From an uncultured SAR86 cluster bacterium (GTDB lineage Bacteria; Pseudomonadota; Gammaproteobacteria; Magnimaribacterales; D2472), in NCBI GenBank assembly GCA_902608115.1, contig CACLMT010000006.1, forward strand, positions 3,361-67,360: a stretch of DNA of 64,000 nt. Direction: 5' to 3'. The notes under the pieces were generated by a model, which saw only the letters and a program-made list of their open reading frames with translations, was not told where the DNA came from and made no database searches. This document shows positions 41,612 to 64,000 of the stretch, in pieces. Positions within the stretch are counted from its first letter, which is position 1; the number at the start of each line of letters is the position of its first letter. A program made the position numbers and the translations under genes.

Positions 41612-41612
41612 T

Positions 41613-44781: not shown

Positions 44782-44793
44782 ACAAGGAAAACT

Positions 44794-46017: not shown

Positions 46018-46018
46018 A

Positions 46019-47107
46019 ATGTATTTTGGGTTATCAGAAGAACAATCTTTTTTTAAAGATAATATAAAGAAGTATTTAGACGATAATGCAACATTAGATA
46101 GTATTAGACATATTACTAACGGCGATGAAAAAAATCTAAGTAGAGAAATTCACAATGGCTTATTAAATCTAGGGATTAATAGTTTACTAATCCCTGAAAA
46201 ATATGGAGGACTTGAATTAGACTTGCTTTTTGCTGCAGTTGTTTCAGAAAGTCTTGGTGGGGGTATAGGTCCAGTACCATTTATTGCTCCGTATGTAATT
46301 GCTCCAAAAGCAATTCTTGAAGCTGGCAGTAGTGAACAAAAAGAAAAGTATCTTTCAAAAATAGCGGTGAATGAAGCACTGTTTGGTGTTGGATTTAGTG
46401 AATTTATAGGAAAAAGAAATGATGCAGGCGTAAGTTTCTCTAATGGTGCGCTAAATGGCAGATCAATGTTTGTCCTAGACGCACAAACTGCAACTCATAT
46501 TTTATTGGCTGATAAAAAAGGTAGAATTTTTATTGTTGAAATAAACTCAAATAATATTGAAATTGTTAACCTCACAACAGTTGATAAAACAAGGCAATAT
46601 GCTGAAGTAATCTGCAAAGACTTAGAGGCTGAAATTCTTATAGGTTCTGAGAATTCTCAAGAACCTATTATTAAAGCTATTGATGCTGGAAGAATCATGC
46701 TGGCAGCTGACACCCTAGGGGCTGCACAAACAATGATTAATAAGGCGGTAGATTATGCTAAAGAAAGAAAACAATTTGGTAGAGTAATTGGATCGTTTCA
46801 AGCAGTTAAACATATGTGTGCTGAAATGGCTGCTGACCTAGAGCCATGCTATGCATTAGTATGGCACGCTGCTCACTGTCATGACCACTCGCCTTCTGAT
46901 GCTAGATTAATGGCATGTCATGCAAAATCACATACATCAGAAATGGGAAAAGGTATTGCAAAAAAAGCAACGGAAGTTCATGGGGGTATGGGCTTTACTG
47001 ATTTACTTGGATTGCATTACTGGTTTAAAAGGATTGGTGTCAATCGTCAAATCCTAGGCTCACCAGAACTTGTAAGAGAAGAGGCTATTCAATCACAACT
47101 TAAATAA
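46019..47107 (+). CDS. acyl-CoA dehydrogenase family protein (second gene of tandem pair 2)
   Basis: Paralog of 32972-34111 (FGRVIGSFQAVKHMCA, EVHGGMGFTD). The ATG at 46019 is 1 nt after the preceding stop. The longer ORF from 45929 overlaps the upstream gene and is rejected. Confidence 0.85.
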   Translation: MYFGLSEEQSFFKDNIKKYLDDNATLDSIRHITNGDEKNLSREIHNGLLNLGINSLLIPEKYGGLELDLLFAAVVSESLGGGIGPVPFIAPYVIAPKAILEAGSSEQKEKYLSKIAVNEALFGVGFSEFIGKRNDAGVSFSNGALNGRSMFVLDAQTATHILLADKKGRIFIVEINSNNIEIVNLTTVDKTRQYAEVICKDLEAEILIGSENSQEPIIKAIDAGRIMLAADTLGAAQTMINKAVDYAKERKQFGRVIGSFQAVKHMCAEMAADLEPCYALVWHAAHCHDHSPSDARLMACHAKSHTSEMGKGIAKKATEVHGGMGFTDLLGLHYWFKRIGVNRQILGSPELVREEAIQSQLK

Positions 47108-51937: not shown

Positions 51938-53242
51938 TCAATTTAATCTTTTAAATCCATCATGACAAACGGGACCATCAAGCATAGATTCTATATCTTT
52001 ACCTTTCTCACATTCAGAAATAATTGAAAATATTGATTCTAAAGCATTGATGTAGTTGTCAATAACTTCATTTGAATGATCAATGCATGTATAAAGACTA
52101 GTCCCTGCCAAATACCCTAGTTTTAACATTTCCTGACTTATAAGTGTCTTATACTCCAAAGAGTGATTACTCTTGAAGCTAAAACCAGAAAGAGAGGGCA
52201 ATCCAAATATGTCAATATTTAAATCATATTTTTTTGAAAGCTCTATCCATCGATCTCTTACCATCAACCCGGTATTGGTGATTATTTCCCAAGATTTTAA
52301 TTTTTCCATAACCTCCAAAGTTTTTAAGGCTGCTGTTGGTCCAATTCTTTCACTCCAAAATGTACTACTTATAAAGCTTGTTTGGGCTGATTCCATCACT
52401 TCTTCTCTACCAATTATTGAAGTTATCGCATATCCATTTCCCAGTGCTTTACCAAAAATTACTATATCCGGATCTACATTATACTTTTTATGAAGCCCTC
52501 CAAATGTTTCCCTAAATCCAGATGTGCATTCATCAAAAATTAAAACGATGCCCTTTTCAGAGCATAGCTTTCTTACATTCTGCAAAAAATTATTCTCCGG
52601 ACCTACATTTCTAGCAACTTCCATCTTAATAACGCCAATGTCCTCTTTTAAAACAAGATTTTCCAAACCTTCAAAATCATTATATTGAAATGGGAAAACT
52701 GTATTCTTTAAATTACGAGGAACTCCATTAGGATCTAATCCTGGAAGAAGATGTCCATCTAGGTTCTTATTGCTTCCTAAATTTGCAGATAAATACCAAT
52801 CATGCCAACCATGATATCCACAAACAGCAACCTTATCTTTCTGAGAGGCTGCTCTAGCTATTCTAATCGCGACCGCATTAGCTTCTCCTCCAGTTCTAGC
52901 AATCCTTCCCATATCTGACCACGGATGCATATCAATTAACTTTTCAATTAAGTGAACTTCTTCTGAACAGTTTAAAGTAGACATATTACCGTTCTTTACA
53001 GTTTTCATTACTGCCTCATCAACCTCTGGATGACCATATCCCAATATATTTGTTCCAATACCCATAAAGGACATGTCTATGTATTTTTTATTATCTAAAT
53101 CCCATACACAACATCCTTTTGATTTTGAAAAATATGCTGGCCAGTTTTCAGGAAGAAACATTTCAGGTCTTTTGGATAGAAGCATATTCCCGCCTGGAAT
53201 AATTTTTTTTGAATATTTATATAATTTTTGTCCTTTTCCCAT
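51938..53242 (-). CDS. class-III (HemL/glutamate-1-semialdehyde aminomutase-like) PLP aminotransferase
   Basis: GTNILGYGHP, TGGEANAVAIRIARA, FDECTSGFR and FGKALGNGYA (PLP Lys). 434 aa. Confidence 0.85.
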   Translation of the reverse strand: MGKGQKLYKYSKKIIPGGNMLLSKRPEMFLPENWPAYFSKSKGCCVWDLDNKKYIDMSFMGIGTNILGYGHPEVDEAVMKTVKNGNMSTLNCSEEVHLIEKLIDMHPWSDMGRIARTGGEANAVAIRIARAASQKDKVAVCGYHGWHDWYLSANLGSNKNLDGHLLPGLDPNGVPRNLKNTVFPFQYNDFEGLENLVLKEDIGVIKMEVARNVGPENNFLQNVRKLCSEKGIVLIFDECTSGFRETFGGLHKKYNVDPDIVIFGKALGNGYAITSIIGREEVMESAQTSFISSTFWSERIGPTAALKTLEVMEKLKSWEIITNTGLMVRDRWIELSKKYDLNIDIFGLPSLSGFSFKSNHSLEYKTLISQEMLKLGYLAGTSLYTCIDHSNEVIDNYINALESIFSIISECEKGKDIESMLDGPVCHDGFKRLN

Positions 53243-53245
53243 ATT

Positions 53246-53977
53246 TTAAGCTTCGTTTCGTATAAATCTTTTATTTGCAGAAAAAAATTCTGGTTTCATT
53301 TCATGTAACTCTAGTATTTTACTCCAATGAAAAAAAATATTTGGATGGAAATGATTAAAGATATTTTTAATAACTTCAAAATCCTCTTTCTCATCAAGCG
53401 TCCAACGTAAATTTGATAAATCAACATCATGTATAAGATTTGATTGTTTAATATTGCTTTGATTTCTTATAAATGGGGTTACATGCTCTCTTTCAAAAGG
53501 ATCTGTAGCTTGATTATAAGCAAGCTTAAGAACTTCAAAACTAAATACCTCAACATCTAAACCATCGGGATAAGATGAAGGGCTTACATTTGAAATATAT
53601 TGAGAGTCTCCACATTTATACATCTCAATAATGTCATCAACAATTAATGGATCTACAAGAGGACAATCTCCAGTAATTCTTACAATAACTTCTAATTTAT
53701 GTTTAACTGCAGTTTCATAATAACGCGCTAATACATCATCCTCACTTCCCCTTTCGCATATATACCCAAGTGAATTTATATGCTTTACCAAGGGATCATT
53801 CTGAGTCTTATCGGAGGTAGCAATTATAATTTCATGAAGTTGATTTGATTTAGTAAGCCTAGCTATTAATAATTCAATAACAGTCTTGCCATTGATTTTC
53901 TTCATAACCTTACCAGGCAATCTAGTAGATCCCATTCGCGCTTGAATTATTGCAGCTATCTTCAAAGAACTGACCAA
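53246..53977 (-). CDS. SpsF-type cytidylyltransferase (CTP_transf_3 family)
   Basis: AAIIQARMGSTRLPGKV signature. 243 aa. TTG at 53977; the alternative TTG at 53965 gives a TTGA overlap with the upstream stop. Confidence 0.8.
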   Translation of the reverse strand: MVSSLKIAAIIQARMGSTRLPGKVMKKINGKTVIELLIARLTKSNQLHEIIIATSDKTQNDPLVKHINSLGYICERGSEDDVLARYYETAVKHKLEVIVRITGDCPLVDPLIVDDIIEMYKCGDSQYISNVSPSSYPDGLDVEVFSFEVLKLAYNQATDPFEREHVTPFIRNQSNIKQSNLIHDVDLSNLRWTLDEKEDFEVIKNIFNHFHPNIFFHWSKILELHEMKPEFFSANKRFIRNEA

Positions 53978-55539
53978 TTTGATGGATTTAACAATTTTTC
54001 ATCTTCGCATGAAATATCTGGAAAAATAAATGGCCTGTTTCTAGGATTAAATGCATCGATAATTTCTGAGAGTTGTTCATTATTATCTACTCCAACTATT
54101 ACCCTATCAATCTGAGGAAGTGATAATGGGTAATGAAGGCATGTCTCAAGTGCAGAAGTATCATTCTTATTAAGCCAATCATGCCAAAAACTAATTAAAT
54201 CGCTCCACTGTGAAAACTTGTCTGGAACCTGTTTCATAGATAACAAAAGTAACCCTTGCAAGAATATAGACCTTGCATGAATCTCTATCCCTGCATCATT
54301 AAGCCTCTGCAACCATCCAGTTGTAAGCATCCTCCTATCAAAAACATTAAAGGGAACCTGAATAATATCAATTTGAAACTTTTGAAAAACAGATGCTACC
54401 TCATCAGGACCATATGCAGAAACACCTATTTTATGAACTAACCCCTCCTGCTTAAGTAACGTCATAGCATGGGCTAGTTTTGCGCCGTCTTCTCCAAAGA
54501 GTTGAGAAGTATCATGAACAAGTAAACCATATGCTGTTTTTAAATTAAGCCTTTCTAAAGATGATTGCATTTGATCATATGCCCACTCATTTACATCTTC
54601 GATAGAGCCTGGAATTGGAGGTAGCTTGGTTACAACTTTAAACTTACCAACCCCAACTTTGCCCAACGATTCTTCGCTTACACCATAAGAAATGGAAGTA
54701 TCTAAAGTATCGATGCCTTTGTTGTCAGCTATCTTTAAAATATTATTAGCTTCCTCTAAATTAACTTGCCCATGTTGATTAGCAATTCCATAATCTGATC
54801 CAAACTGTACAGTACCAATTGCTAATCGATTCATTTTTTTCTTCTCTTGCTCTAGCAAAAAAAGCCTTTCAGCAAATTCATAATCCTCAGCAGTATCAAT
54901 ATCAATTACCTTATGACGAGGCAAAATAAACATAGTTGAATCATTTGAAAATTCTCCTAAACCAGCTAAAACTGCGTTTAAGGTTGATAGGTATAACTGT
55001 CCAGCGTCATGATAAGCATCCTCACAATCTTGGGTTCTGGTATTAATATGCTCTGGAGAAAACATCTCAATTCTCTTGTCTTTATTAAGAAAAAGGGCTC
55101 TTTGAATTGGGTACTCATATGCCCCACAGGCTATTAAACTCTCAGAGTTATTCTTCATTAAAAGCTCTAGAGCCTCCTCCAAATCTTTTGGAGTAATAAA
55201 TACAGCTGACGGGTATACGGTAAGAATTAAATCTGGTTTTCCAATATTTTCTAGATACCATTCAACAGCATGTTTTATAACTGGTCCAGTTCCTATATTG
55301 TCATCAGAAAGTTCTGCTGGTCGCAAAAATGGGGCTTGCACATTTAAGGATTCAACAACTTGCTGAATTTCAGGGCTGTCAGTTGAAACTAAAATATCAT
55401 CAACCAAACCGCAGGCTTGAAGAGTCTGAATTGGCCATGCAATCATCGGTTTCCCGCAAAACTCCTTTATGTTCTTTTTGGGTATTCTTTTACTTCCCCC
55501 TCGAGCAGGTAGAATTGCTAAAACTTTTGGCTTATCCAT
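53962..55539 (-). CDS. fusion protein: NeuA/PseF-like CMP-ulosonate cytidylyltransferase (N) + aldo-keto reductase (C)
   Basis: N-terminal AILPARGGSKRIPKKNI...AYHDAGQLY. From about residue 236, AIGTVQFGSDYGI...GIDTLDTSISYG...LLVHD is an AKR fold. Single uninterrupted 525-aa ORF. Confidence 0.8.
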   Translation of the reverse strand: MDKPKVLAILPARGGSKRIPKKNIKEFCGKPMIAWPIQTLQACGLVDDILVSTDSPEIQQVVESLNVQAPFLRPAELSDDNIGTGPVIKHAVEWYLENIGKPDLILTVYPSAVFITPKDLEEALELLMKNNSESLIACGAYEYPIQRALFLNKDKRIEMFSPEHINTRTQDCEDAYHDAGQLYLSTLNAVLAGLGEFSNDSTMFILPRHKVIDIDTAEDYEFAERLFLLEQEKKKMNRLAIGTVQFGSDYGIANQHGQVNLEEANNILKIADNKGIDTLDTSISYGVSEESLGKVGVGKFKVVTKLPPIPGSIEDVNEWAYDQMQSSLERLNLKTAYGLLVHDTSQLFGEDGAKLAHAMTLLKQEGLVHKIGVSAYGPDEVASVFQKFQIDIIQVPFNVFDRRMLTTGWLQRLNDAGIEIHARSIFLQGLLLLSMKQVPDKFSQWSDLISFWHDWLNKNDTSALETCLHYPLSLPQIDRVIVGVDNNEQLSEIIDAFNPRNRPFIFPDISCEDEKLLNPSNWSVL

Positions 55540-55639
55540 ATAAAAATTAATCTTAATGTCTATATATTTATTTTAACCCTAGAATAAATAAAAGATGTCT
55601 AGTAAATAGAAAAAATATAATTACTAAACATTTCAATAA

Positions 55640-56968
55640 TTATCTATCATTTTGTATATCAGATATTAATAACTTAAATGCTTTAAGATGATTTCGTCTA
55701 TTTAAAGAATTCTTTTGGTTTGATGCTTTGTTTCTTATGGGCAAAATTATGGAAATAATCTCTCTTAAGCGATGATGAATGAAATAATATTGCTGGCCAC
55801 TAGGCTTCTGTTTTATGGGCTGAGCGGTATCTGATAGTATTGAAATCACGCTATCTACAGCTATTATAGGCATTAAAGCACCCATCTCATTTCTAAGCTC
55901 TCCTAAAGTCTTATATTCATCAGAAGAAAAAATAATTTCAGAAATAAGAGGTCCAGCATCTAACGCTGGCTCCATTAAATGAGATGTTAAAGCAATATTT
56001 TTAAAATGCCCATCTAGAATTGGAGCCTCTACTACATCCATTCCTTTATATTGAGGTAATGGACCCATATGAATATTAATGACCCCAAGTGAAAAATAAT
56101 CTAAAACCTGAGAATCGATTAATCCGCCTCCGGTAAAAATACATAAATCACCGTCATTATTTTTCTTTAAATTTAAACTTTCTGAAAAATCATTCACAGA
56201 TATACAATTTACATTATGAGCTTTAGCAAGCTTCCTAATATCTGAAACTCCTGGAGCTATGTTATTTTTTAAAGCCTTTAAACTTAATTCTGAATTATCA
56301 TTATTCTCATCTGATCTTAAAATTAATTTTCTCCAAACTCTTTTAATGAATAAACCAAGCCCATCTCTATATAACTCAGACCTGATCCTAGAGTGAGAAA
56401 ATTTTAATATCACTACAGCCTTTACTTCAACTTTAAGAGATAAAAGAATCTTAAGAACTGTTATAGAAAATAAACTAAATGGGCTTGGACAAAATATAGT
56501 AACTGGATTTTTTTTAATATCTGCAGATGACCATTTATTAAAAGAATAATTGCATTCAATTGCTTCTCCTAGAATTTCTAAATTGACTGGATTAGACTCC
56601 ACAAGTTTATTTGTATGCTGAATTAAGACCTCCTCAAGGAATGTATTTTGTTTATTATCTATTTCACAAGCATCACTAACGATTAAAGCTGCATTTAATA
56701 AAGCTGAATCAATTAAGGTGTTATTAGAATTAATAATTTGATTGCAAAAAATTTCTTTTAACCACAATAGGTGTTCTGTAGCTTCATCTTTAAATCTTTC
56801 AATAGAGATTTTTTTTAAATTTCTGTTATGAAAAGAAATAAATTTTCTAAGTTTCTCTAACCAAGCCATACCAAGATTATCTTTCTCTTGAATTAATTGC
56901 GAAATTAATAATCTATCCTGTTCAGATAGAGCGGTTATGATCCTAGGGGGGCGTGATACTTCTTGCAT
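55640..56968 (-). CDS. formyltransferase-fold protein with an unassigned ~150-aa N-terminal extension
   Basis: Residues ~155-400 resemble Formyl_trans_N: GVINIHMGPLPQYKGMD (compare N-x-H-x-SLLPxxRG) and HLMEPALDAGPLI (compare Asp of the N/H/D triad). The N-terminal region has no recognisable motif. Confidence 0.6.
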   Translation of the reverse strand: MQEVSRPPRIITALSEQDRLLISQLIQEKDNLGMAWLEKLRKFISFHNRNLKKISIERFKDEATEHLLWLKEIFCNQIINSNNTLIDSALLNAALIVSDACEIDNKQNTFLEEVLIQHTNKLVESNPVNLEILGEAIECNYSFNKWSSADIKKNPVTIFCPSPFSLFSITVLKILLSLKVEVKAVVILKFSHSRIRSELYRDGLGLFIKRVWRKLILRSDENNDNSELSLKALKNNIAPGVSDIRKLAKAHNVNCISVNDFSESLNLKKNNDGDLCIFTGGGLIDSQVLDYFSLGVINIHMGPLPQYKGMDVVEAPILDGHFKNIALTSHLMEPALDAGPLISEIIFSSDEYKTLGELRNEMGALMPIIAVDSVISILSDTAQPIKQKPSGQQYYFIHHRLREIISIILPIRNKASNQKNSLNRRNHLKAFKLLISDIQNDR

Positions 56969-57999
56969 TATTTGATACTTGCTTTGATAGCAACCCCATC
57001 TAAAAATGAAAGTGCTTCTCCAAATAAAACAAAATCATCTTTGGATTGCTTGCCATCAGCAAATGCTATCACCCCAAATTTAAAGAACGGCATTGGTAAA
57101 AAATCTTTTTTAAATCTATAAACCTCTTCCCAATCAACCAAATTATTAGAATAAAAAATTATTGAATCTTTAGATTTAACCTCGTCACCTATCTCAACTG
57201 ATGTTTGCAAAACAGCATCTCCAGATTCGAATTGCTTTGAGTACCAAACTGGTCCAGGAAAATACTGGCCTTCAGTAATGCTTCCATCTTTTCGATCAAA
57301 TATTTGAAGGTAAGCTTTTTGAATGGGGGAATCCATTACCCAAATCACTTTTTCAGGCATAAAAAATAAACTAACAGGACGCCATTTCTGACTTCCATCT
57401 CCATGCCATTTTAACTGCAAGAAATCCTGATCAGACACTTCAATAACAAAACATTCGCCATCAAAGTCACCTGTCACTACCCATAAAGATTCAGAAAACT
57501 TATCAGGATAAATACCATGAATATGCTTAATCCTTTGTTCTGTTAGCTCCTTGATAATTTTGAAATTTCTACCATCATCCCTTGATTTCCATATTGGAAC
57601 AGGGTCTCTCTTTTGATTGTGTCCATATTCGCCAAAATATATTCCATGAGATGTAACAGCTAATCCTCCATGCAAAACATTTCTACACTGCTTTAAATTA
57701 TCTATAAAATTTAACTGCTGAGTCTGTAAGTCAAAAAAGTAAATCTTCCATTGATATAAAACTACGACCCCATCTCTTTTCCAGTTAAATACAGCATTAG
57801 CTTTGTCATAACGTAAAAATCTTCTTATGATCCTAAAATTCATAAGGAATTTAATCTGACCAGGAATTAAAAAATTTATCTCTTGATTATTAGTAATAAT
57901 TGAAAAACTGTTGCCAGTACTTTTAATCATGTCCCCAGAATCACTATCATAATGATGAATGATTTCTGATTGTATTTTTTCAGAGATATTAAATATCAT
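56968..57999 (-). CDS. hypothetical protein, possibly beta-propeller-like
   Basis: 343 aa, rich in aromatic and Gly residues with beta-strand character. One Asp-box-like SRDDGRNF. TAATG 1-nt overlap with the downstream gene. No confident family assignment. Confidence 0.5.
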   Translation of the reverse strand: MIFNISEKIQSEIIHHYDSDSGDMIKSTGNSFSIITNNQEINFLIPGQIKFLMNFRIIRRFLRYDKANAVFNWKRDGVVVLYQWKIYFFDLQTQQLNFIDNLKQCRNVLHGGLAVTSHGIYFGEYGHNQKRDPVPIWKSRDDGRNFKIIKELTEQRIKHIHGIYPDKFSESLWVVTGDFDGECFVIEVSDQDFLQLKWHGDGSQKWRPVSLFFMPEKVIWVMDSPIQKAYLQIFDRKDGSITEGQYFPGPVWYSKQFESGDAVLQTSVEIGDEVKSKDSIIFYSNNLVDWEEVYRFKKDFLPMPFFKFGVIAFADGKQSKDDFVLFGEALSFLDGVAIKASIK

Positions 58000-58016
58000 T
58001 GATAATAATAAAAATC

Positions 58017-59300
58017 TTATACGACAGTTAGAAAATTTAAAAATCCTTGAACTTTTAGATTGAAGTTATCAATTGGATGTCTCCTAGTGAGATATGCAGA
58101 CCCTACATCTGCATTATTCCAGTGATAAAATCCAGTAAGCAGACCAAACATTAACCTGTAATCGGTAATAATTTCAGAATATTCATCAAAGCTATATGAC
58201 TCATCTGCACCAAATTCTTTTAGATCTCCTGAACTACAATTAAAAATAAATCTTTTATAAACTTGGTCATCAGATGTAATAGAAAAAATAAAATGATATT
58301 CCTCAGCAATTTCAGATTTGCTCTGAGCATTAGCTGAGGCTTTTTTCATTAGCCTTAAAAAATCAATTTTCTCTGGATCCATTACAAAATCTGTCTCATA
58401 GTCTAATTTTTCTGAACTTATTTCTTCTATTCTTTTTGAAATTTCTTCATGAGAATAACAAGATTCTCTTTTATTACAAACCGAACCAGAGGATAAATCA
58501 ATTGTTCCTCCAGCTTTAAGAATAATTGCTTTTGGATCAAATTGAGTAACCTCAAAGGCATCTGAAACGCCACGGAATTCATTTAAATCTGCATTGCGCC
58601 CTCCCAATACATATTCCCCTGCATATGGAAGATGGTGTCTTGCATTAAACAAATCTGTAAAAGATTTATATCTATCAAATCCTTGTTGTTTCTTATTATT
58701 AGCCTTTTCAATTAGAGTTTCTCTTTGGTTGTGAATATCAAAGTAAGTTTGGGGGTAAGGACCTGCGCCCGTGTATCCACAAGCCACAAGATCTAATCCA
58801 TCACTAAATTTATTTATTATTAATTGCAATTTTTTAACATGAGGCTTGTTAAAAACACAATCATTTAAATTAAGTACAGATTTTTTTAAGAACTTATCAT
58901 ATACAATCAATGCTGAATCAATATCAGAAATGCTGCCCATATCATTCTCTTCTATGTAAAAACTTGTATTTCCAGAATGCATAACTCTAGTTGGGGTTAA
59001 TTCCAGACCATCCGCTTTGCCTTTTAAGAAAAGATAATTTTTTTCGAAATCAGGTATGAGTATTGGCTTAGGCCCAAATTTCTCAAAAAGCTGATGAAGA
59101 AATCCTGGATCATAATGATCTGGATGTATATGTGAAACATATATGTAATCAGGCTCATCAATAAAATCAAAGGGATCTATTAATGGAAATGAAAACCATG
59201 ATCCATCGTAGATCCCTTGTGTAAACCATGGATCACACAGGATTGATACATCAGAAGTTTCAACTTGTATGCACGCAGATGAGATATATTTGACTTTCAT
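58017..59300 (-). CDS. metallo-beta-lactamase-fold protein with an unassigned ~200-aa C-terminal domain
   Basis: HxHxDH motif in YVSHIHPDHYD within an N-terminal MBL-like region. 427 aa. Confidence 0.65.
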   Translation of the reverse strand: MKVKYISSACIQVETSDVSILCDPWFTQGIYDGSWFSFPLIDPFDFIDEPDYIYVSHIHPDHYDPGFLHQLFEKFGPKPILIPDFEKNYLFLKGKADGLELTPTRVMHSGNTSFYIEENDMGSISDIDSALIVYDKFLKKSVLNLNDCVFNKPHVKKLQLIINKFSDGLDLVACGYTGAGPYPQTYFDIHNQRETLIEKANNKKQQGFDRYKSFTDLFNARHHLPYAGEYVLGGRNADLNEFRGVSDAFEVTQFDPKAIILKAGGTIDLSSGSVCNKRESCYSHEEISKRIEEISSEKLDYETDFVMDPEKIDFLRLMKKASANAQSKSEIAEEYHFIFSITSDDQVYKRFIFNCSSGDLKEFGADESYSFDEYSEIITDYRLMFGLLTGFYHWNNADVGSAYLTRRHPIDNFNLKVQGFLNFLTVV

Positions 59301-59474: not shown

Positions 59475-59744
59475 TTATTTCTCAAATTTTCCAATTTGCT
59501 CTATTAATCTTGATGCCCACTCACCTAGTATTGGTATGAATTCAATTTGCGAAAGAATAATGGTCAACAGATATACTAAAATTGTTGCGCCAATTACCCA
59601 GCCCAAACCAGATGCAAGCCCACGAATTAAACTGAAAAACGTTAGTCTCCATAACGAATCATACATCCGAAAAAAATTATGCTGCCTTAAATCAGTGATT
59701 GCTTTTTCCAAGCGCTTAATCGAATCTTGATTTAAATCCATCAT
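59475..59744 (-). CDS. small membrane protein (89 aa; DUF5665-like, from memory)
   Basis: ATG start. Amphipathic N-terminus followed by FFSLIRGLASGLGWVIGATILVYLLTIIL. Confidence 0.45.
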   Translation of the reverse strand: MMDLNQDSIKRLEKAITDLRQHNFFRMYDSLWRLTFFSLIRGLASGLGWVIGATILVYLLTIILSQIEFIPILGEWASRLIEQIGKFEK

Positions 59745-59873: not shown

Positions 59874-60077
59874 ATGACAAAGAAAAACCGATCAGACAAT
59901 CTTATTTTTATATATTTTATTTTTATTTTACTATTGCCCACAAATGTCTACGCATATCTTGATCCTGGATCGGGTAGCGCATTGATTACCGCTATATTTG
60001 GTTTTTTTGCTGCTATTGTTTACACAATTAAAAAATATTTCTATAAAATTAAGTATTTTTTTACAAGAAAGGACTGA
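59874..60077 (+). CDS. small membrane protein (67 aa) with a YLDPGSGS motif
   Basis: Two hydrophobic segments and a basic C-terminus. Weak RBS. Only sizeable ORF in the 59.75-60.16 kb gap. Confidence 0.3.
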   Translation: MTKKNRSDNLIFIYFIFILLLPTNVYAYLDPGSGSALITAIFGFFAAIVYTIKKYFYKIKYFFTRKD

Positions 60078-60159: not shown

Positions 60160-60810
60160 TTATTTTCTTAAATACGCAATAGAAAAGAATAATGAAAATG
60201 TACTGCTTGTTAACCAATAAATTGTTAAGCAAGATGGCATGCTATAAATTAAAGCGCAAATAATAAACGACAGAAAAATATAGCTACTTTTACCTGAATT
60301 AGTTTTGTAATATTTATACCTAGCATCAAAAAAATTAATCGTAAAAATCATGATTGGAATGATATTAAATCCAAACAATAACTCGTCTGGCTTTGATAGG
60401 TTTACAAGATTTAGAAACTCTTCATCCATTGATTGGATATTAATATTAAAAAACAAATATGCGCTTATTAAGACTGGAAAAATCACAAAGAAAGACAAGC
60501 CAGTCATCATATTTTGTATTGGGTGAAAATGATACTTGGTATAGACCTTGTCTACAGCAAAAAATTTTTCTTCACCCTTTAATGATTTTGATATGTTATT
60601 AACCTCATCGGTAATAAGGGCAATTTTTTGACTAAATAAATCCTCTTTCTTCCTTGCTACTCTTAAAATTGGTATCAATAGCAGTGAAGCAGAAATGCTA
60701 GTAAGAATTATCGAAATTCCTTGAGAATTAAAAATACTTAACAAAAAGATATAATAATTCTCAATAAGAAAGATAATTGGGCTAAACCCTATTATTAGAT
60801 AATCGTACAT
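60160..60810 (-). CDS. multi-pass membrane protein, tentatively YidC/Oxa1-family-like
   Basis: Pattern GISIILTSISASLLLIPI, then a charged coiled loop, then HPIQNMMTGLSFFVIFPVLISAY, then NLSKPDELLF, then MPSCLTIYWLTSSTFSL. This parallels conserved YidC core blocks (GxAIIxxT, lP.l.Q.Pif, DLS.PD, lP.gl.lYW). 216 aa. Confidence 0.4.
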   Translation of the reverse strand: MYDYLIIGFSPIIFLIENYYIFLLSIFNSQGISIILTSISASLLLIPILRVARKKEDLFSQKIALITDEVNNISKSLKGEEKFFAVDKVYTKYHFHPIQNMMTGLSFFVIFPVLISAYLFFNINIQSMDEEFLNLVNLSKPDELLFGFNIIPIMIFTINFFDARYKYYKTNSGKSSYIFLSFIICALIYSMPSCLTIYWLTSSTFSLFFSIAYLRK

Positions 60811-60844: not shown

Positions 60845-62014
60845 TTAAATCTTATCTTTTTCTTGAATATAGCTCATCAAAAACTTTGCAGCTACCCCTC
60901 CGCTATTACCAATATTGTATACCCAGCGACTTCGAGCTTCAGCTACTTTTGTTTGCCAATCATTTTTAGATTTACCTAATTTTTTTGCAACTTCTCCAAT
61001 TTCAGAAATATCCTTAGTTGATAGAACTATACCTATTTGATCTCTTATCTGAACTTCTAAGGGTTCTATTTCTAACTCTTGATATTTTGAATTTAAGATT
61101 TTTTTTGGTACATCAACAAAAATAATTGGTCTTTCTAAACCAAAACCAAATTCTAAAGCCGCTCCAGACCAATCACTTATCATAATATCGGAACTGTAAA
61201 ATGAATCGAAAGAATTAGAGTCTAGATCAAGTTGAAAATTCTTATTATTTCCAAAAGAATCTAATAAATGAAATTTTAAATCTGGTTTAAGATGAAAGGT
61301 TCTAGGATGGGGTCTAACGATAATATTGCAATTTACTTTAAGCAAGCTCTCAATAACCTCGTCAGCAAATAATTCGAGCAATCCTTTCTCACCCCATGAG
61401 GGAGCAATGAGAACTTGAAGTGCATCACTTGAATTTTGTTTTCTAGGACCTAATTGACCACTAGCTATCAATGCATCAAGTTTTCCGTAACCATGTTGCA
61501 CCAATTCTTTACAAGGCAAATTATACAAAGTCTCTCGAGCTTTTATTTCAGCTAAATGATGAGGGCCAACACATAAAATCGAGTCGAAATTATCAAAGGC
61601 CTCAGAGCGATAAATCATATGAGTGCTAGCCAATGAATGATGAAGATAAACATATTTCACAGGATATGGAGAACGCTTAATATGAAAAGTTTGCAAATCT
61701 GGCATAGTCATAACCAGTATTTCTGCTTCGAGCCCTGCAAAAAAAAATGTTCTAGCAATACCAGATCCTATAAAAAAAGAACTTATACCTGAATGAGGTT
61801 GCGAGAGCATAGGATCAGAATCACTTGAAGTGACATAAGTAATTTCTTGATTGAAATTATTTTGTAAAGCTGTATATATATCTTTGAAATAATTCCAATA
61901 TCCACCATCTTCAACATAAAAAACAATTTTTCTTTTAGACAAAGGCAGGGCTTTAAAAGCTTGAACTCCTCTCCAGCTAGAAATACTTCTTTTCATTTTT
62001 GATGCTACTGACAT
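60845..62014 (-). CDS. TagB/TagF-family (CDP-glycerol glycerophosphotransferase-like) phosphotransferase
   Basis: VLIAPSWGEKG, IIVRPHPRT and MISDWSGAALEFGFGLERPIIFVD match the TagF-family blocks (aPTwR, HP, itDySS..fDf...kPiif). 389 aa. Overlaps the upstream cytidylyltransferase by 10 nt; the alternative ATG is at 61996. Confidence 0.7.
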   Translation of the reverse strand: MSVASKMKRSISSWRGVQAFKALPLSKRKIVFYVEDGGYWNYFKDIYTALQNNFNQEITYVTSSDSDPMLSQPHSGISSFFIGSGIARTFFFAGLEAEILVMTMPDLQTFHIKRSPYPVKYVYLHHSLASTHMIYRSEAFDNFDSILCVGPHHLAEIKARETLYNLPCKELVQHGYGKLDALIASGQLGPRKQNSSDALQVLIAPSWGEKGLLELFADEVIESLLKVNCNIIVRPHPRTFHLKPDLKFHLLDSFGNNKNFQLDLDSNSFDSFYSSDIMISDWSGAALEFGFGLERPIIFVDVPKKILNSKYQELEIEPLEVQIRDQIGIVLSTKDISEIGEVAKKLGKSKNDWQTKVAEARSRWVYNIGNSGGVAAKFLMSYIQEKDKI

Positions 62015-62787
62015 TTATCTAGATTGATTATCTCTTTGAGCGTGCCTTCATGAAAACATCTTTCATATAGCTCTAGGTCTTCTGCGGTATCCACTTCAAG
62101 CCAACCATTCTCAGTAAATGCTGCTCTAACATCAAAATCTATATCTATTAAATGTTGAAGAAAGCTTGTCATATACATATTTTCTAAATCTTTACCATCA
62201 TAAAGTCTTTGGCGATCTAATGAATGCCAGGCATCCTTGAATGGTCTAACAAAATCAGATCTCACTTTAATTAAACCAATATATTGGCCATCAATTTGAT
62301 CAAAAGATGTGGCTTTCTTACCTATTTCAATTATACGATCTGAGTTAGTTAAACTTAATGTTTCAGCGTCTGACAAAGGATCATCCATTCGGAGATCCCA
62401 AAGACGTTTCCATGACCTATCTATAGAAATACCAATTGGAGAACTACAAGCTATTAAGCTTTCTATTACTCTTCGTTCATATACTATATCTCCGTAGCAG
62501 ATTAATAAATCTTCTTCTTTCATCCAATCTTCAGCACAAAATAAAGTCGCGACCATATTTGTTTTCATGTAATTTGGGTTAAAAGAAGTTTCAGCTCCTA
62601 AGCTATCAAGGCTTTTTGCACAATAGCCACCTACCACCATAATTTCTTCCAAATTCATAGAACGTAAAACTTCAATCTGACGATGCAATAGTGGCTTACC
62701 AGCTAATTTAACCATGCATTTTGGTGTATTGTTTGTGTATGGCTTTAGTCGAGTACCTTCACCTGCAGCTAAAATAATTGCTCTCAT
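62005..62787 (-). CDS. LicC/Cj1416-like nucleotidyl (cytidylyl) transferase
   Basis: MRAIILAAGEGTRLKPYTNNTPKCMV NTP-transferase signature. 260 aa. Confidence 0.8.
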   Translation of the reverse strand: MRAIILAAGEGTRLKPYTNNTPKCMVKLAGKPLLHRQIEVLRSMNLEEIMVVGGYCAKSLDSLGAETSFNPNYMKTNMVATLFCAEDWMKEEDLLICYGDIVYERRVIESLIACSSPIGISIDRSWKRLWDLRMDDPLSDAETLSLTNSDRIIEIGKKATSFDQIDGQYIGLIKVRSDFVRPFKDAWHSLDRQRLYDGKDLENMYMTSFLQHLIDIDFDVRAAFTENGWLEVDTAEDLELYERCFHEGTLKEIINLDKCQ

Positions 62788-62796
62788 AAAATATTT

Positions 62797-63432
62797 TTAA
62801 AAAGACAAGAAAAAACTTTTTAGTAGCTTAGTGTCCAAATTCTTTGAATCGCCATTATCTCGCTCGGGATGCCACATCAACCCCAACCAAGGAAGACTCT
62901 TATGAGTGCAAGCTTCCACGGTTCCATCTTCGGCAACTGCAAGAGGTTTAAGGTCTGTGGCTAGTTCCTTTAGATTAATTCCCCATTCGTGATAACTATT
63001 TACCTTTTGATAATTTTTAAAAGTATTGTCCCCATCGATAGGTTTTATATTATGGAAATTTGCTACGTGTCCATTAACACGTGACAGTGACCCTCCAAGA
63101 AAAGTGTTCATTAGTTGCATTCCACGACAAACCCCTAAAACAGGAACATGTTTCTCTGAGGACCAAGTAAGTAAAGCGTTTTCAATTGCATCACGCTTAG
63201 GAGCAATATTTTTAGCATTATGCAGGTGAGATAGATCATTTCCTCCAGTTAAAATCAGCGCTTCAACTCCAATCAATTTTGCCCAGTTTACAGGATTTTT
63301 TAAACTATTAGGTACAGGTATTCCGGATAAATTAAGATCATCTAATCTTTTAAACCAGTTTTTATCTAAACAATCTCTTTGCTCTTTAGAATCAGCCACC
63401 ACCTCAATCCGTTGTGTAAGACCAACTAACAT
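62797..63432 (-). CDS. class-I glutamine amidotransferase / peptidase C26 gamma-glutamyl hydrolase (Cj1417-like)
   Basis: Nucleophile elbow GVCRGMQLMN and LMWHPE His-Glu. 211 aa. Confidence 0.8.
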   Translation of the reverse strand: MLVGLTQRIEVVADSKEQRDCLDKNWFKRLDDLNLSGIPVPNSLKNPVNWAKLIGVEALILTGGNDLSHLHNAKNIAPKRDAIENALLTWSSEKHVPVLGVCRGMQLMNTFLGGSLSRVNGHVANFHNIKPIDGDNTFKNYQKVNSYHEWGINLKELATDLKPLAVAEDGTVEACTHKSLPWLGLMWHPERDNGDSKNLDTKLLKSFFLSF

Positions 63433-64000
63433 TAGCTTAAAGTCCTTATTATTTTATTTGCAGGATCTAACTCAAGCTCAAAAGACTTTGCTAATGCTCT
63501 ATAGCGGGTTTCACCAATACCGAGTGCAGCAGGCAACTCAAATTCAGCTGCTCGAATTGCCATATGAGAGTTAGCACCACCAAACTTAGTAATTAATCCA
63601 GCAATTCGCCTACCAAATAACCAATCATAACCAGGGTCAGCTTGAGGAATCATAACAATGGCATTCTCTAAATCACAATCTATTGATTCTTCTTGATCTA
63701 AATTAATAACTCTGGCAGTAACTCGAGAAGAACCTACAAAATTTGGCTGTGTTGATGGATATTCAAAAAATGAAAATGCATCACGATTGCAAATTAAAGG
63801 TGGAAGCTCAATAGCTTCAACTAAAGGATGTTGACTCGATGCTAAGCTAGCTTTTTCACGCAACCACTTTCCAACATCAGACGTAATCACCGAGCCTGAT
63901 TTAATATCCCTAATATCAGCAATACTAATATGTGAGAGAAGTTCATGATTAGCTCCTTGCTCCTCTGCCCACTCACCCAATAAATCTAAAGCAAAAGACA
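63432..64000 (-). CDS. PEP-utilizer phosphohistidine-domain protein, C-terminal part only (Cj1418 L-glutamine-kinase-like candidate); 5' end beyond window
   Basis: Frame is open to the window edge. Swivel-domain motif ITKFGGANSHMAIRAAEFELPAALGIGE. The protein ends about 43 residues after the His, so there is no PpsA/PPDK C-terminal TIM-barrel. Confidence 0.75.
   Translation of the reverse strand, partial: SFALDLLGEWAEEQGANHELLSHISIADIRDIKSGSVITSDVGKWLREKASLASSQHPLVEAIELPPLICNRDAFSFFEYPSTQPNFVGSSRVTARVINLDQEESIDCDLENAIVMIPQADPGYDWLFGRRIAGLITKFGGANSHMAIRAAEFELPAALGIGETRYRALAKSFELELDPANKIIRTLS

What the first reader, a model, noticed from the sequence alone, without database searches (positions are those of the whole stretch)
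60845..64000. Campylobacter-type phosphoramidate (MeOPN-like) donor cassette coupled to a TagF-like transferase instead of the 3'-kinase
Four minus-strand genes are tightly coupled: a TAATG 1-nt overlap at 63432, a 9-nt spacer at 62788-62796, and a 10-nt overlap at 62005-62014.

(a) From 63432 to the window edge lies a PEP-utilizer swivel phosphohistidine domain (GGANSHMAIRAAEFELPAALG). It terminates about 43 residues after the His, so no PpsA/PPDK PEP/pyruvate-binding barrel follows.
(b) 62797-63432 is a ~210-aa class-I amidotransferase / C26 gamma-glutamyl hydrolase (GVCRGMQLMN, WHPE).
(c) 62005-62787 is a ~260-aa LicC-type nucleotidyltransferase.

This trio, in this order and with these sizes, is the architecture of C. 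jejuni Cj1418 (L-glutamine kinase, phospho-His close to the C-terminus), Cj1417 (gamma-glutamyl-CDP-amidate hydrolase) and Cj1416 (L-glutamine-phosphate cytidylyltransferase). Those enzymes make cytidine diphosphoramidate for the O-methyl phosphoramidate capsule decoration. Here the slot of the APS-kinase-like Cj1415 is occupied by a TagB/TagF-family phosphotransferase-like gene.

Inference: a TagF-like enzyme could use CDP-amidate directly, with CMP as leaving group as for CDP-glycerol, to install a phosphoramidate on a glycan. That would be a kinase-independent variant. No SAM methyltransferase is visible in the window, so the group may be unmethylated or methylated by genes beyond 64000. 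To my knowledge this chemistry is characterised essentially only in Campylobacter. Its presence in a streamlined free-living-type gammaproteobacterium would be new.
Basis: partly seen in the sequence, partly recalled or inferred. Interest (0 to 1): 0.85.

Follow-up and report, generated by a model that had tools for sequence, protein, structure and literature searches.

The report
Kinase-free phosphoramidate cassette with TagF-like transferase
A marine SAR86 bacterium carries the three enzymes that Campylobacter uses to make its phosphorus-nitrogen sugar decoration, joined here to a teichoic-acid-type transferase instead of the usual extra kinase; the same uncharacterised gene set occurs in hundreds of bacterial species, including culturable Pseudomonas.

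Summary
Four translationally coupled minus-strand genes encode the C-terminus of a PEP-utilizer kinase, a C26 amidohydrolase, a LicC-type nucleotidyltransferase and a TagF-like phosphotransferase. A small YidC paralog follows.

Contigs 99.6% identical to the window extend past base 64000. There the kinase is 1022 aa. It has an ATP-grasp domain and scores 893 bits on NCBIfam PRK05849, against 42 bits or less for PpsA or rifampicin phosphotransferase models. It also has an unexpected N-terminal nucleotidyltransferase-like domain. The amidohydrolase's best family is the Cj1417-type gamma-glutamyl-CDP-amidate hydrolase.

No Cj1415-like kinase, tagD or methyltransferase is present.

The order kinase-amidohydrolase-nucleotidyltransferase-TagF-like recurs across many phyla, in 38 of 62 informative loci. 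These loci come from 434 species that carry the TagF-like protein. Sister loci pair the same transferase clade with PEP-mutase phosphonate donors.

Best reading, inferred and not shown: CDP-amidate is made as in Campylobacter and used directly, with CMP as leaving group, to put a phosphoramidate on an unknown envelope acceptor.

This is a new variant of a known pathway. I found no paper describing it, and it is testable in Pseudomonas.

The parts
63432..64000 (-). 3' end (last 189 codons) of the L-glutamine-kinase-like gene. It carries the swivel phospho-His domain (GGANSHMAIRAAE), and the His lies 43 residues from the C-terminus. The full gene is 1022 aa in same-population contigs: an N-terminal NTP-transferase-like domain, an ATP-grasp, then the swivel His.
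   Evidence: The frame is open to the window edge. Pfam PEP-utilizers E 1.5e-11. NCBIfam PRK05849 E 1.3e-56, aligned to model positions 605-788 of 789. The full-length L092 copy scores 893 bits against a cut-off of 501. The N-terminal domain is a paralog of the stand-alone NTP transferase.
62797..63432 (-). Class-I amidotransferase / C26 gamma-glutamyl hydrolase, 211 aa. It is the Cj1417-like candidate gamma-glutamyl-CDP-amidate hydrolase. The Cys (GVCRGMQ) and His-Glu (WHPE) motifs are present.
   Evidence: Peptidase_C26 E 2.8e-27. NCBIfam GCDPHdlase E 2.3e-39, 135.6 bits, covering positions 1-187 of 198; the next family scores 56 bits. The His-Glu motif is found in 45 of 45 related loci.
62005..62787 (-). 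LicC-type nucleotidyltransferase, 260 aa. It is the candidate CTP:phosphoglutamine cytidylyltransferase, the Cj1416 counterpart by position.
   Evidence: NTP_transf_3 E 1.1e-16. Best PDB match LicC 1jyk, E 1.2e-13. It sits directly upstream of the TagF-like gene in 38 of 62 informative loci.
60845..62014 (-). TagF/TagB-family phosphotransferase-like protein, 389 aa, with no transmembrane segment and an N-terminal amphipathic helix. It is the candidate phosphoramidate transferase with CMP as leaving group.
   Evidence: Glyphos_transf 36.4 bits. The AF2 model has pLDDT 91, and the Foldseek top hits are TagF 3L7K/3L7L, E 4e-12. The motifs APSWG, RPHP and SDWSGAALE are invariant or nearly so.
60160..60810 (-). 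Short YidC/Oxa1-family paralog, 216 aa, about 5 transmembrane segments, 34 nt downstream of the TagF-like gene. It is an accessory membrane component of the gammaproteobacterial version of the cassette.
   Evidence: 60KD_IMP E 2.8e-11. It is 26% identical to the 528-aa YidC paralog at the same position in Pseudomonas. A YidC gene follows the TagF-like gene in 13 of 43 type A loci. Transmembrane segments from a hydropathy scan.

Best explanation
This is an operon for a phosphoramidate (P-NH2) modification of a cell-envelope molecule. It works without the 3'-kinase step known from Campylobacter.

Inferred steps:
1. [quoted passage not shown]
2. The LicC-type nucleotidyltransferase condenses L-glutamine phosphate with CTP to give CDP-L-glutamine. 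The paralogous domain fused to the kinase may help hand over this labile intermediate.
3. The C26 hydrolase removes glutamate, leaving cytidine diphosphoramidate.
4. The membrane-associated TagF-like enzyme lets an acceptor hydroxyl attack the amidate phosphorus. CMP is released, exactly as TagF does with CDP-glycerol. The product is acceptor-O-P(O)(O-)-NH2.

In gammaproteobacteria a dedicated YidC paralog and a polytopic sulfatase-family (LtaS/EptA-like) protein accompany the cassette. They probably serve membrane insertion and a periplasmic transfer or trimming step.

What is shown and what is inferred:
- Shown here: the gene content, the family assignments, the conserved synteny, and the absence of a Cj1415-type kinase.
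- Inferred: every chemical step, the donor actually used, and the acceptor. The acceptor is unknown. LPS or a surface glycan is most likely; a lipid head group is possible.
For: Family assignments:
- Kinase: PRK05849 at 893 bits for the full-length same-population copy, with the ATP-grasp present. The swivel His lies 43 residues from the C-terminus.
- Hydrolase: best family is the Cj1417-type hydrolase.
- Nucleotidyltransferase: LicC-like.
- Transferase: TagF is the top structural match and the family motifs are conserved.

Coupling and synteny:
- The genes are translationally coupled.
- The order kinase-GATase-NTP transferase-TagF-like is conserved. 38 of 62 informative GTDB loci have the GATase and NTP transferase directly upstream of the TagF-like gene. 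28 of 50 loci with enough upstream sequence also have the kinase.
- These loci span Pseudomonas, Planctomycetota, Acidobacteriota, Actinomycetota, Binatia and Chlamydiales.

Absences:
- No Walker-A or APS-kinase-like gene lies beside the 47 loci with the trio.
- No APS_kinase family is among the 25 most frequent families in 54 flanking proteins.
- None lies within 6.8 kb upstream in the extended SAR86 contig.
- No tagD motif occurs in the window.

Modularity: the same TagF-like clade, at 40-45% identity, sits next to PEP-mutase-cytidylyltransferase fusions plus phosphonopyruvate decarboxylase in other genomes. Those donors would have the same form, CMP-O-P(O)(O-)-X with a small X.

Precedent: FtaD of C. 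difficile transfers a phospho-amino acid from a CDP-amino acid. The preprint files it under EC 2.7.8; from memory it is the TagF-family protein CD0244 (bioRxiv 10.64898/2026.02.12.704994).

The Campylobacter pathway itself is taken from PMC11800397 and PMC6429109.
Against: - No biochemistry was done.
- The hydrolase scores 135.6 bits, below NCBI's equivalog cut-off of 250.
- That PRK05849 is the Cj1418 family rests on my memory and could not be checked here.
- I could not obtain the Cj1415-Cj1422 sequences. Orthology of the nucleotidyltransferase to Cj1416 is therefore untested, and so is the family of the Campylobacter transferases.
- The kinase carries a conserved extra nucleotidyltransferase-like domain (40 of 41 complete copies) whose role the model does not require.
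- Most non-SAR86 cassettes add a formyltransferase-like gene (27 of 43 loci with the trio, 0 of 24 without). The final group may therefore be more elaborate than P-NH2 elsewhere.
- TagF-like proteins from phosphoramidate-type and other loci are interleaved in a distance tree. Donor specificity cannot be read from the sequence.
Confidence: 0.55

Rival explanations
1. The donor enzymes are the same, but the TagF-like enzyme uses CDP-L-glutamine itself. It would transfer N-phospho-L-glutamine to the acceptor. The C26 hydrolase then trims glutamate on the acceptor, or the glutamine stays. The end product is the same or a related P-N group, reached in a different order.
For: The nucleotidyltransferase, not the hydrolase, is the immediate upstream neighbour of the TagF-like gene, with a 10-nt overlap. 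A TagF-like gene paired with a LicC-like nucleotidyltransferase also recurs in loci that lack the kinase and hydrolase. FtaD uses an intact CDP-amino acid.
Against: Taking its NCBIfam family name as a guide, the closest characterised homologue of the hydrolase acts on the soluble gamma-glutamyl-CDP-amidate (notes that CDP-glutamine is hydrolysed in Campylobacter rather than used as donor). The hydrolase has no membrane or acceptor-binding feature.
Confidence: 0.15
2. The kinase, nucleotidyltransferase and hydrolase activate a different small molecule, not the glutamine amide. The TagF-like enzyme installs an ordinary phosphodiester-linked head group with no P-N bond. The resemblance to Cj1416-Cj1418 would then reflect family only, not function.
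For: The hydrolase is below the equivalog cut-off. The nucleotidyltransferase is generic LicC-like. The kinase has an extra domain absent from the 789-position PRK05849 model. Public annotations are generic: 'PEP-utilizing enzyme', 'phosphocholine cytidylyltransferase family'.
Against: The kinase matches PRK05849 end to end at 893 bits, far above any other PEP-utilizer family. A gamma-glutamyl hydrolase is retained in every locus that has the kinase, which fits a glutamine-derived nitrogen. One NCBI record already names the Pseudomonas homologue 'glutamine kinase'.
Confidence: 0.15
3. The TagF-like gene is an ordinary CDP-glycerol or CDP-ribitol teichoic-type transferase. It merely sits beside an unrelated trio.
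For: Pfam assigns it to Glyphos_transf, and TagF is the best structural match.
Against: No tagD-type motif occurs in the window, and IspD/TarI is only a sub-threshold hit on the LicC-type transferase. The gene overlaps the nucleotidyltransferase by 10 nt. The four-gene order is conserved across phyla, including organisms without teichoic acids. The match to the Pfam model is weak at 36 bits, and there is no PDB sequence hit, so this is a separate clade.
Confidence: 0.03

Closest known systems
Campylobacter jejuni MeOPN donor pathway: Cj1418 L-glutamine kinase, Cj1416 CTP:phosphoglutamine cytidylyltransferase, Cj1417 gamma-glutamyl-CDP-amidate hydrolase, Cj1415 cytidine diphosphoramidate 3'-kinase (PMC11800397, PMC6429109)
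   Same: The three enzyme families are the same, and the transcriptional order is the same: kinase, then hydrolase, then nucleotidyltransferase. The order in Campylobacter is from memory of the gene numbering. The swivel His is close to the C-terminus. The hydrolase's best family is the Cj1417 model.
   Different: - There is no Cj1415-type kinase. A TagF-like transferase occupies that position.
- The kinase is about 240 aa longer, with a fused nucleotidyltransferase-like domain.
- No Cj1419/Cj1420-type methyltransferases are present in the SAR86 population.
- Accessory YidC and sulfatase-family genes are present.
- The cassette is not embedded in a kps capsule locus.
TagF/TagB CDP-glycerol:poly(glycerophosphate) glycerophosphotransferases (Pfam PF04464; PDB 3L7I-3L7M)
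   Same: The fold is GT-B-like, and TagF is the top Foldseek hit. The family motifs AP(S/T)W, (R/K)xHP and SD(W/Y)S are shared; their mapping to TagF residues is from memory. The enzyme is membrane-peripheral. CMP is the presumed leaving group.
   Different: Identity to TagF is only 16%, and there is no sequence-level PDB hit. No CDP-glycerol supply is encoded. The protein is a single 389-aa domain without TagF's long N-terminal region. The presumed transferred group is a phosphoramidate rather than glycerol phosphate.
[quoted passage not shown]
   Same: It is a phosphotransferase (EC 2.7.8) that takes an unusual CDP-activated amino-acid-derived donor made by an adjacent LicC-like nucleotidyltransferase. 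It decorates a glycan through a phosphate bridge. That it belongs to the TagF family is from memory.
   Different: The FtaD donor has a P-O-C link to threonine, not a P-N bond. No PEP-utilizer kinase or C26 hydrolase is involved. The acceptor there is flagellin-linked GlcNAc. Sequence similarity to FtaD was not tested here.
Phosphonate tailoring (Pnt) pathways: Ppm-PntC fusions making CMP-2-aminoethylphosphonate for cell-surface decoration (PMC6697681)
   Same: The logic is the same: a LicC-like cytidylyltransferase activates a small phosphorus head group for transfer to the envelope. Members of the very same TagF-like clade sit next to Ppm-cytidylyltransferase fusions and Ppd.
   Different: Those donors carry a C-P bond instead of N-P. 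The published Pnt neighbourhoods name LicD-like transferases, not this TagF-like clade.
LtaS / EptA / OpgB-type sulfatase-family membrane transferases
   Same: The protein encoded just upstream of the kinase has about 4-5 N-terminal transmembrane segments followed by an alkaline-phosphatase/sulfatase-superfamily domain. It lies beyond the window edge, in L092.
   Different: The Pfam Sulfatase match is weak, and there is no NCBIfam or PDB sequence match. The SAR86 and Pseudomonas versions are barely alignable to each other. The function is unknown.

Membership tests
Campylobacter-type MeOPN biosynthesis system (Cj1415-Cj1422) | L-glutamine kinase: ATP-grasp plus a swivel phospho-His near the C-terminus, with no PEP/pyruvate barrel | tested here: met
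   The window fragment scores PRK05849 E 1.3e-56. The full-length same-population copy scores 893 bits against a cut-off of 501, with PPDK_N present and Rph/PpsA models at 42 bits or less. Caveat: that Cj1418 belongs to PRK05849 is from memory. An extra N-terminal domain is present.
Campylobacter-type MeOPN biosynthesis system (Cj1415-Cj1422) | gamma-glutamyl-CDP-amidate hydrolase (Cj1417 type) | tested here: inconclusive
   NCBIfam GCDPHdlase is the best family (135.6 bits, full-length alignment) but is below the equivalog cut-off of 250. The catalytic Cys and His-Glu are present.
Campylobacter-type MeOPN biosynthesis system (Cj1415-Cj1422) | CTP:phosphoglutamine cytidylyltransferase (Cj1416 type) | not testable with these tools
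   It is a LicC-like NTP transferase. No Cj1416 sequence, model or structure was available for comparison.
Campylobacter-type MeOPN biosynthesis system (Cj1415-Cj1422) | Cytidine diphosphoramidate 3'-kinase (Cj1415, APS-kinase-like) | tested here: not met
   None is present in the window operon or in the 6.8 kb upstream in L092-L095. No Walker-A small kinase lies beside the 47 loci with the trio. APS_kinase is not among the 25 most frequent Pfam families in 54 flanking proteins. An unlinked kinase elsewhere in the genome cannot be excluded.
Campylobacter-type MeOPN biosynthesis system (Cj1415-Cj1422) | Methyltransferases (Cj1419/Cj1420 candidates) giving the O-methyl group | tested here: not met
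   No methyltransferase lies in the window operon or in the same-population extension. A class-I methyltransferase (216 aa) sits upstream only in relatives at 77-80% identity. Methyltransferases were found in only 3 of 54 flanking proteins elsewhere.
Campylobacter-type MeOPN biosynthesis system (Cj1415-Cj1422) | Cj1421/Cj1422-type MeOPN transferase | not testable with these tools
   No sequences or family assignment for Cj1421/Cj1422 could be obtained. The only transferase candidate here is the TagF-like protein.
TagF/TagB glycerophosphotransferase family (PF04464) | Match to the family model and fold | tested here: met
   Glyphos_transf scores 36.4 bits against a gathering score of 22.1. The AF2 model (pLDDT 91) has TagF 3L7K/3L7L as best PDB matches at E 4e-12 and TM-score about 0.58.
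TagF/TagB glycerophosphotransferase family (PF04464) | CDP-glycerol (TagD) or CDP-ribitol (TarI/J) supply in the locus | tested here: not met
   No HxGH/RTxGISTT-type cytidylyltransferase motif occurs in any window ORF. The adjacent nucleotidyltransferase is LicC-like and is coupled to the kinase and hydrolase.
YidC/Oxa1 insertases | 60KD_IMP core with about 5 transmembrane segments | tested here: met
   PF02096 scores 44 bits against a cut-off of 35. The TIGR03592 domain scores 41 bits, below its cut-off of 84. The hydropathy scan gives about 5 segments. It is a paralog, not shown to be the housekeeping copy.

The most novel reading that the evidence does not exclude
This cassette is the missing biosynthetic route to unmethylated phosphoramide groups on bacterial envelopes. 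Orphan examples are known in Xanthomonas and Shewanella LPS.

It would define a widespread, modular system: relatives of the TagF-like protein occur in at least 434 species across many phyla. One clade of TagF-like enzymes would transfer small P-X head groups directly from cytidine nucleotides, either P-NH2 from CDP-amidate or C-P phosphonates from CMP-phosphonates. No PAPS-like 3'-phosphorylated donor would be needed.

In most lineages the P-NH2 group would be further processed by a previously unrecognised H-x-H formyltransferase-like enzyme, for example by N-formylation. That enzyme is found only next to the glutamine-kinase donor genes.
Probability: 0.35. Interest if true: 0.85.

Novelty: new variant of a known kind. 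Interest (0 to 1): 0.7.

Why it matters
Biological P-N bonds on cell surfaces are regarded as a Campylobacter speciality. Their transfer step is still biochemically unresolved.

A kinase-independent version in which a TagF-type enzyme is the obvious transferase would have several consequences:
- It would show that phosphoramidate decoration is phylogenetically broad. SAR86 is among the most abundant marine bacteria, and the cassette also occurs in soil Pseudomonas, Planctomycetota, Acidobacteriota and Actinomycetota.
- It would give a tractable system. Culturable P. chlororaphis, P. brenneri, P. japonica and P. canadensis carry it, so the transfer chemistry could be worked out there.
- It would offer candidate genes for the unexplained phosphoramide in Xanthomonas and Shewanella LPS.
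- It would extend the donor range of TagF-like enzymes and link it to phosphonate tailoring.
- In the ocean it would add an unrecognised P-N pool to the organic phosphorus of the cell surface.

Tried and rejected
**Attempts that failed**
- I could not obtain Cj1415-Cj1422 for direct comparison. The Raushel papers (PMC5938747, PMC5629633, PMC6643271) are not held. The PDB has no Cj1416, Cj1417 or Cj1418 chains.
- An exact-match contig look-up with the amidohydrolase gave only fragments under 2 kb. The YidC-like protein gave long same-population contigs.
- I could not test whether Xanthomonas or Shewanella carry the cassette. Only the best 80 of the 434 loci were returned.

**The 442-aa formyltransferase-like gene (55640-56968)**
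- I first counted this gene, with the MBL-fold and 343-aa genes, as part of the cassette. I rejected that.
- It has the canonical N-x-H motif and scores only 33 bits on an HMM of the cassette-type formyltransferase-like family.
- Its own small family of 55 proteins travels with the 343-aa gene, and with the MBL and PseF-AKR genes, in loci that lack the cassette.

**Ideas tested and rejected**
- The 89-aa DUF5665 protein is not homologous to the 80-aa ORF at the same place in Pseudomonas.
- The N-terminal extension of the kinase is not a fused Cj1415-like P-loop kinase. It is an NTP-transferase paralog with no Walker A motif.
- Defence-system membership: no PADLOC hits.
- Plasmid or phage carriage: no hits.
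- The promoter and terminator scan around the operon end was uninformative.
- Literature searches for the cassette found nothing.

Full report
**1. The observation**

The ORF table gives four co-oriented minus-strand genes at the reported coordinates.
- 63432 to the window edge. The frame has no stop up to base 63998.
- 62797-63432, 211 aa.
- 62005-62787, 260 aa.
- 60845-62014, 389 aa.

The junctions can be read directly from the sequence: the TAATG overlap at 63432, a 9-nt spacer, and a 10-nt overlap (ATGTCAGTAG). A fifth gene follows after 34 nt at 60160-60810.

Pfam confirms the domain calls.

| Gene | Pfam family | Score |
|---|---|---|
| 63432-edge | PEP-utilizers | E 1.5e-11 |
| 62797-63432 | Peptidase_C26 / GATase | E 2.8e-27 / 2.9e-15 |
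| 62005-62787 | NTP_transf_3 | E 1.1e-16 |
| 60845-62014 | Glyphos_transf | 36.4 bits, cut-off 22.1 |
| 60160-60810 | 60KD_IMP | E 2.8e-11 |

The kinase fragment ends 43 residues after the His of GGANSHMAIRAAE. The amidohydrolase has GVCRGMQLMN and WHPE.

**2. What lies beyond base 64000**

The YidC-like protein occurs on many long marine contigs. L092-L095 are 99.6% identical to the window over 13.8 kb, so I take them as the same population.

In these contigs the kinase is 1022 aa.
- Pfam finds PPDK_N (ATP-grasp) and PEP-utilizers.
- NCBIfam PRK05849 scores 893 bits against a cut-off of 501, aligned over residues 228-1021.
- The rifamycin phosphotransferase model scores 37 bits and PpsA models 42 bits or less.

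Upstream lie, in order:
- a sulfatase-family protein of 472 aa with an N-terminal block of about 4-5 hydrophobic segments;
- a 401-aa coiled-coil-like protein;
- a 117-aa lipoprotein-like protein;
- an SRA/PvuRts1I-like endonuclease gene.

This stretch contains no APS-kinase-like gene and no methyltransferase. Relatives at 77-80% nucleotide identity (L007-L009) do have a 216-aa class-I methyltransferase next to the sulfatase-family gene.

The organism is SAR86. Cluster members at 90% identity or more, and the nearest formyltransferase homologue, are named SAR86 cluster bacterium. G+C is 31-37%.

**3. Relation to the Campylobacter enzymes**

The amidohydrolase's best NCBIfam family is the Cj1417-type gamma-glutamyl-CDP-amidate hydrolase. 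It scores E 2.3e-39 and 135.6 bits and aligns nearly end to end.
- The next family scores 56 bits, PuuD 38 and anthranilate synthase II 44.
- The score is below the equivalog cut-off of 250. The protein is therefore a relative of Cj1417, not a certified equivalog.

The nucleotidyltransferase is LicC-like: its best PDB match is 1jyk. No Cj1416 model or sequence was available, so its orthology is untested.

The Campylobacter pathway is taken from PMC11800397 and PMC6429109. Cj1418 makes L-Gln-phosphate. Cj1416 makes CDP-L-Gln. Cj1417 makes CDP-amidate. Cj1415 adds the 3'-phosphate.

It is a paralog of the stand-alone nucleotidyltransferase (24% identity over 205 aa, E 1e-12). It is present in 40 of 41 complete kinases of related loci, with conserved LGAG[KR] and WAELN motifs.

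**4. The TagF-like protein**

It has no sequence-level hit in the PDB. An AlphaFold2 model built from a 20-sequence alignment is confident: pLDDT 91, pTM 0.89.
- The best PDB matches are the teichoic acid polymerase TagF, 3L7K and 3L7L, at E 4e-12.
- Generic GT-B enzymes follow, and a capsule multienzyme solved with CMP.

The family alignment shows invariant APxWG, RPH and SDW-G-E motifs and several invariant histidines. The protein has no transmembrane segment and starts with a basic amphipathic helix.

The family is discrete and rare. In a library of 1.84 billion cluster representatives, 747 score E 1e-30 or better.

**5. Comparative genomics**

Homologues at about 50% identity occur in Pseudomonas: chlororaphis, veronii, yamanorum, canadensis and others.

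In P. chlororaphis the locus reads sulfatase-family (695 aa), kinase (1018 aa), C26 hydrolase, nucleotidyltransferase, TagF-like, an 80-aa ORF, a YidC paralog (528 aa), then a formyltransferase-like gene (456 aa). It sits among unrelated genes.

A scan of one genome per GTDB species found relatives in 434 species. The best 80 loci span Gamma-, Beta- and Alphaproteobacteria, Planctomycetota, Acidobacteriota, Chloroflexota, Actinomycetota, Myxococcota, Binatia, Nitrospinota, Chlamydiales and others.

My ORF and BLAST maps give these counts.

| Feature | Count |
|---|---|
| Hydrolase and nucleotidyltransferase directly upstream of the TagF-like gene, among loci with at least 2.7 kb upstream | 38 of 62 |
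| Kinase also present, among loci with at least 5.8 kb upstream | 28 of 50 |
| Hydrolase present but kinase displaced or not found, same set | 3 of 50 |

Catalytic motifs are retained in nearly all copies.

No small Walker-A or APS-kinase-like gene accompanies these loci. A Pfam survey of 54 flanking proteins shows Sulfatase as the most recurrent family. No APS_kinase is among the 25 most frequent families, and methyltransferases appear in only 3 proteins.

The absence of the Cj1415 step is thus a property of the whole cassette family, not of this window.

**6. Modularity**

Of the 62 loci, 24 lack the kinase and hydrolase.
- In L044 and L045 the genes next to the TagF-like gene are a PEP-mutase-nucleotidyltransferase fusion and a TPP-dependent decarboxylase. 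That is a phosphonate pathway with cytidylyl activation, as described in PMC6697681.
- By gene sizes, L063 and L069 look the same.
- TagF-like proteins of the two locus types are interleaved in a distance tree. Mean identity is 46% within the kinase-containing type and 43% between types.

This clade therefore appears to take small P-X groups from different cytidine-nucleotide donors.

That is the strongest indirect support for direct use of CDP-amidate with CMP as leaving group. CDP-amidate and CMP-aminoethylphosphonate differ only in the substituent on the transferred phosphorus.

A published precedent is FtaD of C. difficile. It uses CDP-N-methylthreonine, and the same preprint notes that CDP-glutamine was until then the only other CDP-amino acid known.

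**7. What does and does not belong to the cassette in the window**

The YidC-like gene belongs. A YidC paralog follows the TagF-like gene in 13 of 43 kinase-containing loci and in all the gammaproteobacterial ones I examined.

A formyltransferase-like gene follows in 27 of 43 kinase-containing loci and in 0 of 24 others.
- It has an unusual, highly conserved signature, LFTGGG...H-x-HPG-LP-VRGAD-LWS...G-D-G.
- It is often preceded by a helical protein of about 145 aa.

The window's own formyltransferase-like gene (55640-56968) is not this enzyme.
- It has the canonical N-x-H motif and scores only 33 bits on an HMM of the cassette type.
- Its small family of 55 proteins travels with the 343-aa gene in loci that lack the cassette. 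In one of these loci the MBL-fold gene and the PseF-aldo/keto-reductase fusion are present too.

The window therefore holds two adjacent modules. The phosphoramidate-type operon runs from 60160 to beyond 64000. A separate cytidylyltransferase, aminotransferase and formyltransferase module lies at 51938-59300.

No glycosyltransferase, Wzx or Wzy gene is nearby. The genes at 35-50 kb are catabolic.

**8. Mechanism and its status**

*Shown:* the gene content, family assignments, translational coupling, conserved order across phyla, absence of the 3'-kinase, tagD and (in this population) methyltransferases, and the alternative phosphonate donors for the same transferase clade.

*Inferred:* L-Gln is converted to L-Gln-phosphate, then CDP-L-Gln, then CDP-amidate. 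The TagF-like enzyme then transfers the phosphoramidate to an acceptor hydroxyl and releases CMP.

*Unknown:*
- The acceptor. In SAR86 and Pseudomonas the cassette is self-contained. This points to a common envelope molecule (LPS core or lipid A, another glycan, or a lipid) rather than a strain-specific polysaccharide.
- The roles of the sulfatase-family protein, the YidC paralog, the fused nucleotidyltransferase-like domain and, elsewhere, the H-x-H formyltransferase-like enzyme.

*Main rival:* transfer of N-phosphoglutamine from CDP-L-Gln, followed by trimming. It gives the same end product.

**9. Novelty**

Searches of the paper library found the Campylobacter work, a structural annotation of Cj1416-Cj1418-like genes in Borg elements, and nothing on a TagF-coupled cassette.

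Public annotations of the Pseudomonas genes are generic, apart from one record that names the kinase 'glutamine kinase'.

Phosphoramide substituents are reported on Xanthomonas campestris and Shewanella MR-4 LPS. I found no genes assigned to them in these reviews.

I rate this a new variant of a known kind: known donor chemistry, with a new and widespread way of delivering it.

Noticed in passing
window 51938-59300 (minus strand): A separate six-gene module sits next to the cassette: MBL-fold protein (427 aa), unknown (343 aa), canonical formyltransferase-like protein (442 aa), PseF-aldo/keto-reductase fusion (525 aa, TIGR03584 260 bits), CTP_transf_3 (243 aa) and a class-III aminotransferase (434 aa). 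The same module recurs without the phosphoramidate cassette in L096. The 343-aa and formyltransferase pair also recurs in L097 and L098. Its product is unknown.
   Followed up: partly
L032:8068-9371 (also L039, L051, L053, L062, L067, L090; fused form L005:13091-14461): This is a formyltransferase-superfamily protein with an H-x-HPG-LP-VRGAD-LWS signature, where canonical enzymes have N-x-H. It is usually preceded by a helical protein of about 145 aa. It is found downstream of the TagF-like gene in 27 of 43 loci that have the glutamine-kinase trio and in 0 of 24 that lack it. It is absent from the SAR86 window. It may modify the P-NH2 group.
   Followed up: partly
L092:4311-5000 (the part of the kinase gene beyond the window edge): The kinase carries an N-terminal domain of about 235 aa that is a paralog of the stand-alone LicC-type nucleotidyltransferase (24% identity, E 1e-12). 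Pfam does not recognise it. It is present in 40 of 41 complete cassette kinases, with conserved LGAG[KR] and WAELN motifs. It lies outside the 789-position PRK05849 model.
   Followed up: partly
L044:10983-13981; L045:11170-16070: Members of the same TagF-like clade sit next to PEP-mutase-nucleotidyltransferase fusions and a phosphonopyruvate-decarboxylase-like TPP enzyme. This indicates that the clade also serves phosphonate decoration.
   Followed up: partly
L092:2852-4270 (just beyond the window edge); L005:3376-5463: A polytopic sulfatase/alkaline-phosphatase-superfamily membrane protein lies immediately upstream of the kinase in SAR86 and Pseudomonas. Sulfatase-family genes are also the most recurrent flanking family in other phyla. 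The SAR86 and Pseudomonas versions barely align with each other.
   Followed up: partly
window 59475-59744 (-) and 59874-60077 (+): An 89-aa DUF5665 membrane protein and a 67-aa hydrophobic ORF on the opposite strand lie between the cassette and the next module. The DUF5665 protein is not homologous to the 80-aa ORF at the equivalent place in Pseudomonas.
   Followed up: partly
L092:1-507, L093:1-507: An SRA / PvuRts1I-like gene, a modification-dependent restriction endonuclease type, bounds the island on the far side.
   Followed up: no
window 38037-47107 (+): An acyclic-terpene/leucine-type catabolic cluster: carboxyltransferase, biotin carboxylase, AtuA, enoyl-CoA hydratase and two acyl-CoA dehydrogenases. 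It shows that the surface-modification island is short and is not part of a large polysaccharide locus.
   Followed up: no
L068 and L080: Two contigs carry the TagF-like gene under unexpected bin names. L068 is binned as a Nitrosopumilus single-cell genome and has the TagF-like gene without the trio. L080 is binned as a Bifidobacterium breve MAG and has the full cassette. These are either binning errors or horizontal transfer.
   Followed up: no
P0036, P0042, P0131, P0187: JGI/IMG names many TagF-like proteins 'YidC/Oxa1 family membrane protein insertase', and names the kinase or nucleotidyltransferase 'choline kinase'. These look like systematic mis-annotations of the cassette genes.
   Followed up: no
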